From a virus: DNA of 64,000 nt. Numbering within the stretch: position 1 is the stretch's first letter; the number at the start of each line of letters is the position of its first letter. Below, one piece after another: positions 5,631-30,588 of the stretch. A program made the translations under genes and the position numbers. Where the stretch lies: IMG/VR virus record IMGVR_UViG_3300027625_000001; one strand, 5' to 3'. The notes beneath the pieces were generated by a model. That model was given only the letters and a program-made list of their open reading frames with translations, was not told where the DNA came from and did no database searches.

Positions 5631-5894
5631 CTAGTCTCTGTCGCCCTTCATCTCGTTGAAGGCGTCCGAGATTTCCTTCCAGCTTACCTCGCCGTAAGCC
5701 GTATGAAGCTTGCCGGGCGAGAGGTTCTTCATGTCAGGGGTCCCGTTCGGGAGCATCTCGAGAACGAAGTCTTTCGCCTTCGCTGAGGTGAATCGACCAC
5801 GGTGTTCAAGGACAGAATGGTAGAGCCCTTCGTCGTTGCCGAACCAAAGGGCGATGTTCCATGTCATCCGATTCTTCCAGCCGTTATACGCCAT
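5631..5894 (-). CDS. stand-alone family D domain protein (87 aa)
   Basis: GWKN..TW, DEGL, K.FVL..LP and VSW.EI..FNE motifs shared with the N-terminal domain of 30082..30588. Confidence 0.55.
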   Translation of the reverse strand: MAYNGWKNRMTWNIALWFGNDEGLYHSVLEHRGRFTSAKAKDFVLEMLPNGTPDMKNLSPGKLHTAYGEVSWKEISDAFNEMKGDRD

Positions 5895-5967
5895 GGCGTT
5901 GTTCCTCCCCCCGCAGTCTACCGCTGCGCGCCCGCCGGGCCAAAATTACGGGAATTGTGTGTCGGCC

Positions 5968-6651
5968 TCAGTCCGTGCCGGAAGTACCCGTGCTCACGCC
6001 CACGTTCACCGCCACGGGCTCGGGGATCGCATCCGTGTACGGGTGCGCCGCGTAGTACGTCATCGCGCGATCGAGTCGCGCTTTCGCCTTCGGGTGCCGG
6101 TTGTCCATGCAGCTCTCGCCCGAGTAGGCACAGAGCGAGCCGTGGTACTTGAGCGAATCACGCTCGACGCGCTGCGCGACGCGGACAGCGACCTTCCGGT
6201 CGGCGACAAGCTCGGCGCCGCCAATCACGGTGTGGGACGCGAGCACGCTGGGAGCTGCGTACATCTTCGACGAGAGCGTGCCGTCCTCGAGCAGGATGTA
6301 GCCGCCTCCCGAGACGTGGATCTGCCAGAGCGAGAACGCGTGCCTGCCGTCGCAGTCGCCGCGCCTGTCGGCGACGTACCCGGCCTGGTTGCACGACCCG
6401 TCGTCGACGAACTTCTGGAAGCCCGTCTCCATGCTCGCGATGGCAGCCTGGAGCAGCGCAGTCTTCACGCGGCCGTCGGCGTGTGCGAAGACGGACGGCT
6501 CGCTCGCGTCGAGAGCGACGGTGACGATGTCCTCCGCCACGGAATGCAGGCGCGCCTTCGCGTCGTCCTCGCTCTCGCCGTACGGGGTGAGGTTCCGCAC
6601 CGGGATCCAGGAGAGGATCGCGACGAAAATGTAGCTAACGAGATTTTGCAT
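5968..6651 (-). CDS. exported SLT-like lytic transglycosylase candidate (227 aa)
   Basis: N-terminal hydrophobic anchor; ASMETGFQ (ESGF-like catalytic Glu motif) followed by AFSLWQI (GLMQI-like). Confidence 0.5.
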   Translation of the reverse strand: MQNLVSYIFVAILSWIPVRNLTPYGESEDDAKARLHSVAEDIVTVALDASEPSVFAHADGRVKTALLQAAIASMETGFQKFVDDGSCNQAGYVADRRGDCDGRHAFSLWQIHVSGGGYILLEDGTLSSKMYAAPSVLASHTVIGGAELVADRKVAVRVAQRVERDSLKYHGSLCAYSGESCMDNRHPKAKARLDRAMTYYAAHPYTDAIPEPVAVNVGVSTGTSGTD

Positions 6652-6772
6652 CCGATCGCCCGTACTTCACGAGCGAGTGGATGACAACTGCAATCGCCAC
6701 ACCTGCACCTGTAGCGAGCAAGAACTCTGCCACGACCGCCTTCGCGATCTCCGCTTTCGGTTTCTCAGTCAT
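6635..6772 (-). CDS. small single-TM peptide (45 aa), below the 60-aa track cutoff
   Basis: ATG 6770-6772 to TAG 6635-6637; MTEKPKAEIAKAVVAEFLLATGAGVAIAVVIHSLVKYGRSDAKSR; overlaps the start of the SLT-like gene. Confidence 0.3.
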   Translation of the reverse strand: MTEKPKAEIAKAVVAEFLLATGAGVAIAVVIHSLVKYGRSDAKSR

Positions 6773-6892
6773 GTTCTTCTCTTCGAGGTTTTCCTTGAAC
6801 TAATACATTGGACTTCGCTCGCAACCGACTGTGCCAAAGGCACGGTCGATTTCTTCTTGCTGGGAAGATGCCGAAGGCGTCGTTACCAGATG

Positions 6893-7210
6893 TCATCGCA
6901 AAATTTCTGCTCGGTGCACGATGCACTCGAGCAGCGGCTTCGGGAACTCCTCGCCTTCCGGTTCGTTCAGATCGATCGTGACATAGCCGTCGTCCGACAC
7001 ATGGATTATCGCGGCGAGCGGGCCGCGGGTGGGCCCGCGCGCGAGCTTGCGCGACATGGAAGCGAAGATGCTGAACTCGTACCCGTCGTCCGCCGCAGAG
7101 GCCGTGAGCGGCCCGATGCCCACGAGCGACCGATCGCCTCTCGTCACCCTCTCGCACGCGCTGCGGAGCTTGAGCGCGTACCTGTGGGCGGACGACTTGC
7201 CGAGCGGCAT
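6893..7210 (-). CDS. paralog family C protein (105 aa)
   Basis: MP.G.S.A.R.ALKL.S.C and LLEC.VH.AE motifs shared with 23008..23289. Confidence 0.55.
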   Translation of the reverse strand: MPLGKSSAHRYALKLRSACERVTRGDRSLVGIGPLTASAADDGYEFSIFASMSRKLARGPTRGPLAAIIHVSDDGYVTIDLNEPEGEEFPKPLLECIVHRAEILR

Positions 7211-7214
7211 CGCG

Positions 7215-7691
7215 TCAGCGTTCCTCGGCGACGTACTCTTTGATGATCTCGTCGTCCTCGAAGAGCACTACGTCTTCACCGGCCACACGGCCGAAGTTCT
7301 CCTCGGAGTCCTCCACGTACGAATGGAACGCTTCCTCGGCTTCCTTGCGACTGAACCCGCTGTAGACGGTGCCGACGTTGCCGACGACAACCCTGTACTC
7401 CTCCTCCGACCGCGCCCTCGACGCTTTCTGAGGCTTCGGCAGCTCGACGACCTCGCGCCGAAGCTCACTCTCGGTGCCTTTGGCGAAGTCGAGCCACGAT
7501 CCATCCTTTTGTCTGCGCTCGGTATAGAGCATCAGGGTCCCCTTGCCACCGAAACCCGTGAAGTATGAAGCACTCCTTGAGAGTCGGAACACTTCGTCAG
7601 GAAAACCACGCATACCGAACGTTTTCGGGAACGTGCCGATGACTTCATCGATCTTGTCTTGTTCGTCCTTCTGCATGACCTCTTCCTTCAC
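7215..7691 (-). CDS. acidic hypothetical protein (158 aa)
   Basis: Track ORF; balanced composition. Confidence 0.6.
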   Translation of the reverse strand: MKEEVMQKDEQDKIDEVIGTFPKTFGMRGFPDEVFRLSRSASYFTGFGGKGTLMLYTERRQKDGSWLDFAKGTESELRREVVELPKPQKASRARSEEEYRVVVGNVGTVYSGFSRKEAEEAFHSYVEDSEENFGRVAGEDVVLFEDDEIIKEYVAEER

Positions 7692-28888: not shown

Positions 28889-29086
28889 GCGTCCTCGCGT
28901 TCGCGGAGACAGAAGCCGCGATCCACGCGACGGCGCGCGCGACGCAGCCCCTTTTTCTTGCCCCATCGCCACATCGCGTGCCTGTCCTTGCTCCGGTAAC
29001 AAGAAATCATTCCCACGTGGAGACCTCGCCACAAGAACATGCTGTCGTGGTTCTCGACCTGGCGACGAAGGCCGCTCGCACCCACG

Positions 29087-29512
29087 TCAAGCTCCCCCGA
29101 GGATGGCGGTCGGATCCTCGAGCGTGTCGCCGACGCGGACCTGCACCGTCGTGAGAACGCCGCCGCCCTTCATGTACGTCACCTTGACGACTGGTTCTGC
29201 ATCTTCGTAACCCTGCGCGCGAAGCTCCGCGACGCGCCAGCACACGAGATCGCACGCGTCCCCGATCCCGCGCCTCGCGGTGTGCGGGATATCCTGCCAG
29301 ACCCCGAAGTCGGCCGGTCCCCCGTATTTGGGTGCCACGTTGTAGAGGCTCGGGTAGCTCGAGCCCGCGCTCTCCTCGTGCCGCTTCAAGAATGAGACGT
29401 TCATCGCGACGAGCGCTTCGAGGAGCCGGCGCAACGTCAGCATCCTCTCCTCGGGGACAGCCTCTTCCTTCTTGACCTTCTTCGCGTTCTTCTTCGCGTC
29501 GTCCTTCTTCAT
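29087..29512 (-). CDS. hypothetical protein with Lys-rich N-terminus (141 aa)
   Basis: Trimmed to ATG 29510-29512; the longer track ORF would run into the RNA-gene region. Confidence 0.5.
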   Translation of the reverse strand: MKKDDAKKNAKKVKKEEAVPEERMLTLRRLLEALVAMNVSFLKRHEESAGSSYPSLYNVAPKYGGPADFGVWQDIPHTARRGIGDACDLVCWRVAELRAQGYEDAEPVVKVTYMKGGGVLTTVQVRVGDTLEDPTAILGGA

Positions 29513-29547
29513 CTCGGACCTGAGTTCGAATTCATTGCGTTGTGGAG

Positions 29548-29640
29548 GCGTCGGGAATCGAACCCGAGTCCGGCAAATTTCCAAGCTCACCTTCGTCCAC
29601 GTGCGTGATCGACTCGAAACAAAAACAGCGCCACCGCGTC
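29548..29640 (-). other. tRNA-like 3' element (canonical T-arm plus acceptor 3' strand; full cloverleaf not resolvable)
   Basis: Minus strand reads ...TCGGG-TTCGATT-CCCGA-CGCCTCC-A (perfect T-stem, TTCGATT loop). No convincing D or anticodon arm upstream; a 92-nt class-II-length window is possible. Confidence 0.3.
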
Positions 29641-29943
29641 GATTCAGTTTTGCTGGTTTCCGAGGATCTCGCCTCGGCAGAGCCATTCTTCAAAGTCCCG
29701 CACGGATGGTTAGGCAATCCCCGTGAAGCTAGCCTCTGTTGGGTTGATGGTGCCTGGATACCGAAGCGTCTACCGGACTACCAGCTCAGGCCGCTAGGGC
29801 CGGGGCGAATGCGTTGTCGTTCGCAGATATACGACTCGATTGGTCACAGCGGATCGAGCGCCGCTCACACGCAGATGAGTTCTTCTTTTCGCCGTCGAAA
29901 CCTGGTCACCCCCGAATTGTTCATGTTTCCAGAAATTCTAAGC

Positions 29944-30018
29944 TTGGTAACAGGGGAAGGATTCGCACCTCCGACCTCCAGGTTATGAGCCTGGCGAGCT
30001 ACTCCTGCTCTACCCTGC
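29944..30018 (-). tRNA. tRNA with anticodon CAT (Met, or Ile via lysidine), CCA encoded
   Basis: Hand-folded cloverleaf: acceptor CGCAGGG/CCCTGTT (6 of 7 pairs, mismatch at 1:72); D-stem GAGC/GCTC; anticodon stem CCAGG/CCTGG with loop CTCATAA; T-stem GGAGG/CCTTC with loop TGCGAAT; then A-CCA. Confidence 0.55.
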
Positions 30019-30081
30019 GATCCGAAACGTAACTCAGGACACGGCTGACGGCAACTCGCCCTCAGCAATCGGCGCGCGTCA

Positions 30082-30588
30082 CTACCCGATCCCGACGAGA
30101 CGCCCGTGGATGGCGCCTCGCTCCACCCACCCGTTGATGCGGTGATCGCTGGCGATCTGGTAGAAGCCATTCTTCATCTCGATCACGCGATGCAGCACCA
30201 CACGGCCCCCGACCTCGCAGAGCACGACGTCGCCCTCGCGGACGGCCCGCTCGCCGATCGGCTCCACGGTGCACAGCTCTCCGGGACGGATCGTCTCCGA
30301 CATCGAGTCGCCGTGCGGCCTGAACCTCACGGTCTTGCCGGCCGCGAGCCTATCCGTGATGTGCCCAGCGCTCTCATTGAAGTCCTTCGCGATCTCGGGC
30401 CACGACACGGCTTCGTGCTTCACGGTCTCCGGGAGCAAGCCCAGGACGAACGCTTTCACGCGGATGGCGTCGAAGGGACCGCTCCTTTCGTACTCGCGGC
30501 GAAGGAGCCGGTGGAGCCCCTCGTCCTCCTCGAACACGTGGGCGACGTCCCACGTCGCGTGGTTCTTCCAACCTTTGTAATTACTCAT
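30082..30588 (-). CDS. two-domain protein: family D domain fused to S24 peptidase domain (168 aa)
   Basis: N-terminus MSNYKGWKNHATW... matches 5631..5894; C-terminus FRPHGDSM ... LCEVGG matches 20990..21298. Track ORF's 119-aa Arg-rich extension removed; ATGA overlap at 30585-30588. Confidence 0.6.
   Translation of the reverse strand: MSNYKGWKNHATWDVAHVFEEDEGLHRLLRREYERSGPFDAIRVKAFVLGLLPETVKHEAVSWPEIAKDFNESAGHITDRLAAGKTVRFRPHGDSMSETIRPGELCTVEPIGERAVREGDVVLCEVGGRVVLHRVIEMKNGFYQIASDHRINGWVERGAIHGRLVGIG

What the first reader, a model, noticed from the sequence alone, without database searches (positions are those of the whole stretch)
5631..30588. Domain shuffling: a family D domain and an S24 peptidase domain occur both fused and as separate genes
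The gene 30082..30588 encodes the family D domain (GWKN..TW, DEGL, FVL..LP, VSW.EI..FNE) fused to an S24 LexA-like peptidase (GDSM ... LCEVGG). The same two domains are encoded separately elsewhere, family D alone at 5631..5894 and S24 alone at 20990..21298. An autocleaving S24 domain attached to an unknown module suggests an SOS or RecA*-sensing switch, with free modules acting as dominant regulators or decoys.
Basis: seen in the sequence. Interest (0 to 1): 0.55.

Follow-up and report, generated by a model that had tools for sequence, protein, structure and literature searches.

The report
Phage fusion of DUF7249 and mini-peptidase
A large uncultured phage has joined two small protein modules that normally stand alone (a phage-only helical domain and a 100-residue LexA/signal-peptidase-like domain with a Ser/His active site) into one gene, but nothing supports it being a DNA-damage (SOS) switch.

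Summary
Gene 30082..30588(-) encodes 168 aa: a divergent DUF7249 domain (res 1-73) joined end to end to a ~95-aa S24/S26-fold domain (res 74-168). Free paralogues lie at 5631..5894(-) (DUF7249, 39% identity, E 3e-14) and 20990..21298(-) (54% identity, E 1e-34). There are no further copies in the window.

The fusion is rare: I found it only in this phage lineage and in one 82%-identical relative. It is under purifying selection (dN/dS 0.12) and sits in a variable slot just upstream of a phage tRNA-Met and tmRNA.

The SOS/RecA reading is not supported.
- The canonical general-base Lys is replaced by a His that is nearly invariant in the family, as in ER/archaeal-type signal peptidases.
- The LexA cleavage-site region is missing.
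- DUF7249 is acidic, shows no sign of binding DNA and has no fold match.

Both families are large and almost always single-domain. The most likely function is a soluble Ser95/His133 hydrolase tethered to a DUF7249 partner-binding module, but the function is inferred, not shown.

One unexpected result: in IMG/VR, 22 of 77 genes of the mini-peptidase family lie within 1 kb of co-oriented tRNA genes, often inside the tRNA arrays of huge phages. I rate the finding a new variant of a known kind, of moderate interest.

The parts
30082..30588 (-). Fusion gene, 168 aa: DUF7249 domain + mini S24/S26-fold domain
   Evidence: ORF and ATGA start overlap. The identical protein is called on at least 20 contigs. 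AF2 model pLDDT 90.7.
30370..30588 (-). DUF7249 half (res 1-73). It is divergent: it lacks the family's near-invariant GTPD motif and about 16 residues after it.
   Evidence: BLASTP E 3e-14 to the free copy. Family profile E 1.9e-23. Alignment A3.
30085..30369 (-). Mini S24/S26-fold half (res 74-168). Ser95 codon at 30304..30306, His133 codon at 30190..30192, Ala74-Gly75 at 30364..30369.
   Evidence: Pfam PF00717 27.6 bits. Foldseek hits to SpsB, LexA C-domain, SEC11 and UmuD. Codons checked.
5631..5894 (-). Free-standing DUF7249 gene, 87 aa
   Evidence: PF23907 46.8 bits. Orthologues at 66-81% identity on contigs of 48-600 kb. AF2 pLDDT 92.7, all-alpha.
20990..21298 (-). Free-standing mini S24/S26-fold gene, 102 aa. 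Ser26 codon at 21221..21223, His64 codon at 21107..21109. Its stop overlaps the start of the next gene (ATGA).
   Evidence: An 89%-identical orthologue is at the syntenic place in L008.
29945..30019 (-). tRNA-Met (CAT), 62 nt downstream of the fusion gene and co-oriented
   Evidence: ARAGORN. Same arrangement in L007.
29542..29913 (-). Phage tmRNA, tag ANDNAFAPALAA
   Evidence: ARAGORN. Conserved in L007 and L008.
30585..31016 (-). Upstream 143-aa ORFan that shares the variable slot with the fusion. It is absent in L007 and L008.

Best explanation
Two old families of small proteins, each normally free-standing, have been joined end to end in one lineage of a large uncultured phage. One is DUF7249: acidic, all-helical, seen almost only as single-domain phage or metagenome proteins, function unknown. 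The other is a basic, soluble domain of about 100 aa with the LexA/signal-peptidase fold (clan SF) and conserved Ser and His. The resulting 168-aa protein is conserved and selected. The C-terminal half most likely works as a cytoplasmic Ser95/His133 hydrolase. This is the chemistry of ER/archaeal-type signal peptidases (family S26B), not the Ser/Lys chemistry of LexA. The DUF7249 half most likely supplies a partner-binding or targeting function, or is a tethered substrate. The free paralogues are the ancestral, ordinary state of each family, not decoys. Shown: domain identities, fold, conserved Ser and His, rarity and lineage restriction of the fusion, purifying selection, variable genomic slot. 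Inferred: catalytic activity, role of DUF7249, no coupling to RecA.
For: Homology of both halves to the free copies. Fold: the AF2 model (pLDDT 90.7) hits SpsB, LexA C-domains, SEC11A/C and UmuD at probability 1.0 over about 90 residues. Active site: Ser and His are invariant in 22 close homologues. Among 149 cluster representatives Ser is present in 138 and His in 145, while the Lys three residues after the His is present in only 50. The His aligns with the catalytic Lys of SpsB (YLHLV against YVKRV) and, by ungapped extension, with LexA K156. The best NCBIfam match is archaeal-type signal peptidase I, below cutoff. All ten phage homologues checked keep Ser and His. No transmembrane segment. 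Fusion rarity: only P0001 and P0002 span both halves. DUF7249 hits are nearly all single-domain proteins of 76-105 aa. dN/dS between the window and L007 is 0.12 (0.14 and 0.085 for the two halves), and residues 61-107, which span the junction and Ser95, are identical. The slot between the 90-aa gene and tRNA-Met holds different genes in the window, L007 and L008. No DUF7249 gene lies within 5 kb of a mini-S24 gene in the other phages checked.
Against: No activity data exist for any member of either family (searches found no literature). The fusion's C-half has remodelled the family's GNNRG loop to SDH-R and lost several near-invariant residues, so its activity could be altered or lost. Both halves are more divergent than their free counterparts.
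Confidence: 0.55

Rival explanations
1. LexA/UmuD-like switch: RecA* or high pH triggers self-cleavage at Ala74-Gly75 and releases DUF7249; the free modules act as decoys.
For: S24-type fold and the GDSM Ser. An Ala-Gly dipeptide lies exactly at the domain junction and is kept in the 82% orthologue. The junction region, residues 61-107, is 100% conserved.
Against: His replaces the dyad Lys. Only 20 residues separate Ala74 from Ser95, against 35 in LexA, and the cleavage-site hairpin is absent. The Ala is a family-conserved residue of an N-terminal helix, and the Gly is not conserved. DUF7249 shows no DNA-binding signature. Cellular homologues are not next to SOS genes.
Confidence: 0.06
2. RecA-independent self-processing pro-protein: the Ser/His domain cuts the junction, in cis or in trans, to liberate a DUF7249 fragment.
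For: End-to-end fusion with a perfectly conserved junction. The domain is a plausible endopeptidase.
Against: No conserved cleavage motif. The junction is predicted to be helical with high confidence (helices at residues 63-74 and 77-82), which is unfavourable for a protease substrate. Free DUF7249 is already encoded separately.
Confidence: 0.12
3. Pseudo-peptidase: the mini S24/S26 domain is a non-catalytic binding or scaffold module, like SipA of Streptococcus pyogenes. The fusion then simply links two binding modules.
For: Very small domain. SipA (4n31) is among the fold hits. The family's neighbours and fusion partners are heterogeneous: HD_4, GNAT, zinc ribbon, macro, HAD.
Against: Ser (138 of 149) and His (145 of 149) are the best-conserved polar residues, together with GD[IV]V and NGW. 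That pattern is what selection on catalysis would produce.
Confidence: 0.17
4. tRNA- or translation-linked enzyme: the basic mini domain acts on aminoacyl- or peptidyl-tRNA, on nascent or tmRNA-tagged peptides, or protects phage tRNAs. The fusion next to tRNA-Met and tmRNA would be a specialised form. This is compatible with the best explanation's chemistry.
For: 28 of 77 IMG/VR loci have co-oriented tRNAs within 5 kb, 22 within 1 kb, and 16 are flanked on both sides; 291 of 291 tRNAs are on the same strand. Phage G gp89 sits inside its tRNA array. The window and L007 fusions lie directly upstream of tRNA-Met and tmRNA. The family's median pI is 9.55.
Against: About two thirds of the loci, and the bacterial loci, have no tRNA nearby. 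tRNA arrays may simply be hotspots for accessory genes. Several loci share array architecture, so they are not independent.
Confidence: 0.1

Closest known systems
ER/archaeal-type signal peptidase I (MEROPS S26B: Sec11, SipW, archaeal SPase; TIGR02228)
   Same: Clan SF fold. Ser in GxSM, GD[IV]V box, and His at the general-base position in a hydrophobic-H-[RLK]-[VI] motif (LHRV in the fusion). Best NCBIfam match. That S26B enzymes use Ser/His is from my own knowledge of the family.
   Different: Soluble, with no membrane anchor. About 100 aa, against more than 150. Scores far below the family cutoff (22 against 51.85 bits). The box E motif is GNN, or SDH in the fusion, rather than GDN. Located in the cytoplasm and in phages.
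LexA / UmuD / lambda CI autopeptidase domain (MEROPS S24, PF00717)
   Same: Same fold: about 90 residues superpose at about 3 A on LexA and UmuD. GxSM nucleophile motif. Pfam assigns PF00717. The fusion has a two-domain layout with an N-terminal module.
   Different: No catalytic Lys. No cleavage-site region. No DNA-binding N-domain. Normally free-standing.
DUF7249 (PF23907) / PHROG 871
   Same: The free copy is a full member. Same Y-x-G-W-x-N-x-x-T-W and NDEGLY motifs. A small protein of phages, including Clostridium, Ralstonia, Enterobacter and E. coli jumbo phages and cyanophages.
   Different: The fusion's copy has lost the near-invariant GTPD motif and the following segment, and scores below Pfam's cutoff. 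Fusion to a peptidase-fold domain was not seen elsewhere.
Small soluble or accessory S26 relatives (NiSOD maturation protease SodX, TIGR02754; SipA pseudo-peptidase)
   Same: They show that a clan SF domain of about 100 aa can act as a dedicated protease or as a non-catalytic chaperone. There are weak hits to both.
   Different: No NiSOD or pilus genes nearby. The TIGR02754 score is insignificant (E 0.09).

Membership tests
Peptidase S24 (LexA/UmuD/CI autopeptidases) | LexA/signal-peptidase beta fold | tested here: met
   Foldseek probability 1.0 to LexA, UmuD and CI C-domains, about 90 aligned residues at about 3 A. PF00717 27.6 bits against a cutoff of 23.3 for the fusion, and 22.7 for the free copy.
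Peptidase S24 (LexA/UmuD/CI autopeptidases) | Ser nucleophile in the G-x-S-M motif | tested here: met
   GDSM (Ser95) and GNSM (Ser26). Invariant in alignment A2, and present in 138 of 149 representatives.
Peptidase S24 (LexA/UmuD/CI autopeptidases) | Lys general base (LexA K156) | tested here: not met
   His133/His64 occupy this column against SpsB and against LexA by ungapped extension of the hhalign match. His is present in 145 of 149 representatives.
Peptidase S24 (LexA/UmuD/CI autopeptidases) | Internal cleavage-site region (Ala/Cys-Gly in a hairpin about 35 residues before the Ser) | tested here: not met
   Family proteins start about 25 residues before the Ser. The alignment to LexA begins at residue 112. 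The fusion's Ala74-Gly75 lies between two predicted helices, and the Gly is not conserved in the family.
Peptidase S24 (LexA/UmuD/CI autopeptidases) | N-terminal DNA-binding domain (for repressors) | tested here: not met
Peptidase S24 (LexA/UmuD/CI autopeptidases) | RecA*- or alkali-stimulated self-cleavage | not testable with these tools
   Needs biochemistry.
Signal peptidase S26B (ER/archaeal type) | Ser/His catalytic pair at boxes B and D | tested here: met
   Positional equivalence comes from sequence alignment only; the geometry was not measured.
Signal peptidase S26B (ER/archaeal type) | Box E GDN motif / catalytic Asp | tested here: inconclusive
   The family has IGNNRG and the fusion has IASDH-R. 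More distant representatives have KGD...DGW. PMC12984324 identifies Gly272-Asn274 of E. coli LepB as the tripeptide that coordinates the nucleophile.
Signal peptidase S26B (ER/archaeal type) | Membrane anchor / extracytoplasmic active site | tested here: not met
   Maximum 19-residue Kyte-Doolittle hydropathy is 0.96 (fusion) and 1.45 (free copy).
Signal peptidase S26B (ER/archaeal type) | Score above the curated model cutoff (TIGR02228) | tested here: not met
   22 bits against 51.85.
DUF7249 (PF23907) | Score above Pfam's gathering cutoff | tested here: met
   The free copy 5631..5894 scores 46.8 against 27. The fusion N-half scores only 21, but a profile of close relatives gives E 1.9e-23 and BLASTP gives 3e-14.
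DUF7249 (PF23907) | Near-invariant motifs WxNxxTW, NDEGLY and P-x-GTPD | tested here: inconclusive
   The free copy has all of them. The fusion keeps GWKNHATW and EDEGLH but has PETVKH in place of PNGTPD, plus a 16-residue deletion.

The most novel reading that the evidence does not exclude
The ~100-aa basic Ser/His mini S24/S26 domain could be an uncharacterised enzyme of huge phages that is functionally tied to their tRNA and tmRNA genes. It might hydrolyse aminoacyl- or peptidyl-tRNA or tagged or nascent peptides, or counter tRNA-targeting defences. On this reading, the DUF7249 fusion placed directly upstream of tRNA-Met and tmRNA would be a lineage-specific, retargeted version of that enzyme.
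Probability: 0.1. Interest if true: 0.75.

Novelty: new variant of a known kind. Interest (0 to 1): 0.4.

Why it matters
Clan SF peptidases are textbook Ser/Lys enzymes. Their known roles are SOS and prophage switches (S24) and membrane-bound signal peptidases (S26). This window points to a large, unstudied, soluble Ser/His branch of about 100 aa. About 1,400 50%-identity cluster representatives match the fusion, and the best 150 matches are all through this domain. The branch is concentrated in huge phages and is routinely mis-annotated as 'repressor'. The rare fusion to DUF7249 gives a first hint of a functional partner for two domains that have no assigned function. The recurrent placement of the mini domain inside tRNA arrays is a testable lead to its role. 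For annotation, an S24 hit should not be read as evidence of an SOS-responsive repressor unless the Lys and the cleavage-site region are checked.

Tried and rejected
1. I guessed that both S24-bearing genes sit next to ParB-like genes (the 143-aa and 131-aa neighbours). Pfam finds nothing at E up to 0.1 and the two neighbours are not similar to each other. Dropped.

2. I looked for a DUF7249 / mini-S24 gene-neighbourhood link in other phages. No DUF7249 gene lies within 5 kb of the mini-S24 gene in any of the loci L010-L020.

3. I tested whether the fusion arose by recent duplication within the genome. The C-half is only marginally closer to the in-genome free copy (104 bits) than to outside homologues (94 bits). 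The N-half is about equally distant from the DUF7249 proteins compared, at 39-46% identity for the ten best hits. The divergence is therefore old, or evolution has been accelerated.

5. Conserved neighbours of bacterial mini-S24 genes: HAD hydrolases, a macro-domain protein and a pyridine-nucleotide oxidoreductase, with no common theme and no SOS genes.

6. Literature: no paper on DUF7249, on S24 domains in jumbo or huge phages, or on soluble Ser/His S24/S26 domains.

7. Assembly or frameshift artefact: rejected. The identical fusion is on more than 20 contigs from several samples, and an 82% orthologue is also fused.

8. No close nucleotide relative exists among 50,697 deposited phage records.
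Full report
**Setting.** The window is 62.7% G+C and densely packed with small genes, mostly on the minus strand. PHROG matches to an FtsH-like ATP-dependent protease, an RtcB tRNA ligase, a DNA methyltransferase and a phosphoribosyl transferase, together with a tmRNA and a tRNA-Met, point to a large phage. No deposited phage is close at the nucleotide level. The same genes occur on JGI metagenome contigs of up to 70 kb. Orthologues of the free DUF7249 gene sit on contigs of 48-600 kb.

**Observation.** All three genes are present as described.
- The 168-aa product of 30082..30588(-) matches the 87-aa product of 5631..5894(-) over its first 75 residues (39% identity, E 3e-14).
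- It matches the 102-aa product of 20990..21298(-) over residues 71-167 (54% identity, E 1e-34).
- Pfam names the modules DUF7249 (PF23907) and Peptidase_S24 (PF00717).
- tblastn and family-profile searches of all six frames find no further copies in the window.
- The fusion is not an assembly artefact. The identical protein is called on more than 20 contigs from several samples, and an 82%-identical orthologue (P0002, locus L007) is also fused.
- dN/dS between the two orthologues is 0.12 (0.14 for the DUF7249 half, 0.085 for the peptidase-fold half). Residues 61-107, which span the junction and the active-site Ser, are identical.

**What the C-terminal module is.** An AlphaFold2 model (pLDDT 90.7) matches S. 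aureus signal peptidase SpsB, LexA C-domains, human SEC11A/C, UmuD and lambda CI at Foldseek probability 1.0. About 90 residues superpose at about 3 A. The module therefore has the clan SF (LexA/signal-peptidase) fold. It differs from LexA in three ways.
- In 22 close homologues the invariant polar residues are the Ser of GxSM and a His in the motif Y-L-H.
- Across 149 50%-identity cluster representatives, Ser is kept in 138 and His in 145. The Lys three residues after the His is kept in only 50, and both window copies lack it.
- The His aligns with the catalytic Lys of SpsB (YLHLV against YVKRV). By ungapped extension of the hhalign match it also aligns with LexA K156.

A Ser/His pair at these positions is the hallmark of ER/archaeal-type signal peptidases (S26B: Sec11, SipW), which I know from the literature on that family. 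Consistent with this, the best NCBIfam match is archaeal-type signal peptidase I, although far below its cutoff.

The proteins have no hydrophobic segment. They begin only about 25 residues before the Ser, so the roughly 35-residue cleavage-site hairpin of LexA is absent. The family is large. The fusion matched 1,390 representatives at E up to 1e-3, and apart from the self-hit the best 150 all match through the C-half. Most are free-standing proteins of about 100 aa. Occasional fusions to an HD_4 domain, a GNAT acetyltransferase or a zinc-ribbon/membrane region exist. Deposited copies are annotated 'repressor protein', for example Bacillus phage G gp89 and Rctr197k_202, on the strength of the S24 hit alone.

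- It occurs in cultured phages of Clostridium, Ralstonia, Enterobacter and E. coli (350-kb jumbo phages) and in cyanophages, always labelled hypothetical.
- A profile search finds 1,501 proteins. Nearly all of the best 120 are single-domain, 76-105 aa.
- The only other architecture seen has a different N-terminal segment of about 55 aa.
- The family is acidic (median pI 5.2), whereas the mini-peptidase family is basic (median 9.55).
- The fusion's copy is degenerate. It keeps GWKNHATW and EDEGLH but has lost the near-invariant P-x-GTPD motif and the 16 residues after it.

**Origin of the fusion.** The junction is end to end. The DUF7249 C-terminal '...FNE' runs straight into the conserved N-terminal helix of the mini-peptidase family.
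- Only this lineage carries the fusion.
- The C-half is marginally closest to the free copy of the same lineage (104 against 94 bits). The N-half is roughly equidistant from the DUF7249 proteins compared (39-46% identity for the ten best hits), and the in-genome free copy is no closer.
- The gene sits in a variable slot between a conserved 90-aa gene and tRNA-Met/tmRNA. The window has a 143-aa ORFan plus the fusion. L007 has the fusion only. The related contig L008 has two unrelated ORFs on the opposite strand and no fusion, while keeping the free copies at syntenic places.
- DUF7249 and mini-peptidase genes are not neighbours in the other phages checked.

**Mechanism.** The best-supported reading is a soluble Ser95/His133 hydrolase domain tethered to a DUF7249 module that provides partner binding or is itself a tethered substrate. 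The architecture, the fold, the conserved Ser and His, and selection are shown. Activity and the role of DUF7249 are inferred.

I give it about 6%. RecA-independent self-processing at the conserved Ala74-Gly75 junction remains possible (about 12%), but the junction is confidently predicted to be helical. A non-catalytic pseudo-peptidase (about 17%) is disfavoured by the near-invariant Ser and His.

**Unexpected lead.** The fusion lies 62 nt upstream of a co-oriented tRNA-Met and tmRNA, and this matches a trend across the family.
- Phage G gp89 sits inside the phage's tRNA array.
- Of 77 IMG/VR loci, most of them on contigs of 100-600 kb, 28 have tRNAs within 5 kb, 22 within 1 kb and 9 within 150 nt. 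Sixteen are flanked on both sides. All 291 tRNAs are on the same strand as the gene.
- At least four distinct array contexts recur: Tyr|gene|Ser..., ...Met|gene|...Arg, Leu(gag)|gene|Leu(caa), and Cys-Asp|gene|Phe-Tyr.
- DUF7249 loci show 4 of 80. The enrichment is therefore suggestive, not established.
- I found no paper that mentions this association.

**Verdict.** The finding is a new variant of a known kind, namely a soluble Ser/His mini clan SF domain fused to DUF7249. Interest is moderate (0.4), mainly because of the uncharacterised family and its possible tRNA-array association rather than the fusion itself.

Noticed in passing
L021-L097 (IMG/VR), L014 (Bacillus phage G 58767..59078), L015, L019; window 29542..30588: Genes of the mini S24/S26 (Ser/His) family are often embedded in, or adjacent to, co-oriented tRNA arrays of huge phages. 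28 of 77 loci have tRNAs within 5 kb, 22 within 1 kb, 16 are flanked on both sides, and 291 of 291 tRNAs are on the same strand. Several copies start 14-60 nt after a tRNA-Met or tRNA-Tyr.
   Followed up: partly
window 29542..30019 (-); L007 3723..4201; L008 4614..5095: Phage-encoded tRNA-Met(CAT) plus a tmRNA with the tag ANDNAFAPALAA, conserved with an identical tag in two related contigs. I did not try to infer the host from the tag.
   Followed up: no
window 30020..31020 vs L007 3156..3722 vs L008 3849..4613: The slot between the conserved 90-aa gene (31021..31293) and tRNA-Met is hypervariable. The window has a 143-aa ORFan plus the fusion, L007 has the fusion only, and L008 has two unrelated opposite-strand ORFs. 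Small-gene insertions and deletions also separate the free S24 gene from its methyltransferase neighbour: two extra genes in the window, none in L008.
   Followed up: partly
window 30268..30408 (fusion residues 61-107): A 47-residue stretch spanning the domain junction and the GDSM Ser is 100% identical between orthologues that are 82% identical overall. It is the most constrained part of the protein. The cause is unknown: it could be an inter-domain interface or a processing site.
   Followed up: no
proteins P0089, P0180, P0188; P0220, P0223-P0225: Other fusions of the two modules exist elsewhere. The mini S24 domain is found with an N-terminal HD_4 domain, with a C-terminal GNAT acetyltransferase, and with a zinc ribbon plus a hydrophobic region. 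DUF7249 is found with a different N-terminal helical segment of about 55 aa and a basic linker.
   Followed up: partly
window 57490..59334 (-), 48873..50297 (-), 47473..48270 (-), 19399..20136 (-): PHROG matches to an FtsH-like ATP-dependent protease (E 2e-89), an RtcB tRNA ligase (E 4e-69), a phosphoribosyl transferase and a DNA methyltransferase. The 870-aa, 520-aa and 478-aa ORFs have no PHROG match.
   Followed up: no
proteins P0070 and P0179: Two mini-S24 family members carry an insert of about 27-45 residues. In P0070 the insert lies in the GNNRG loop. They could be frameshifted gene calls or true insertions.
   Followed up: no
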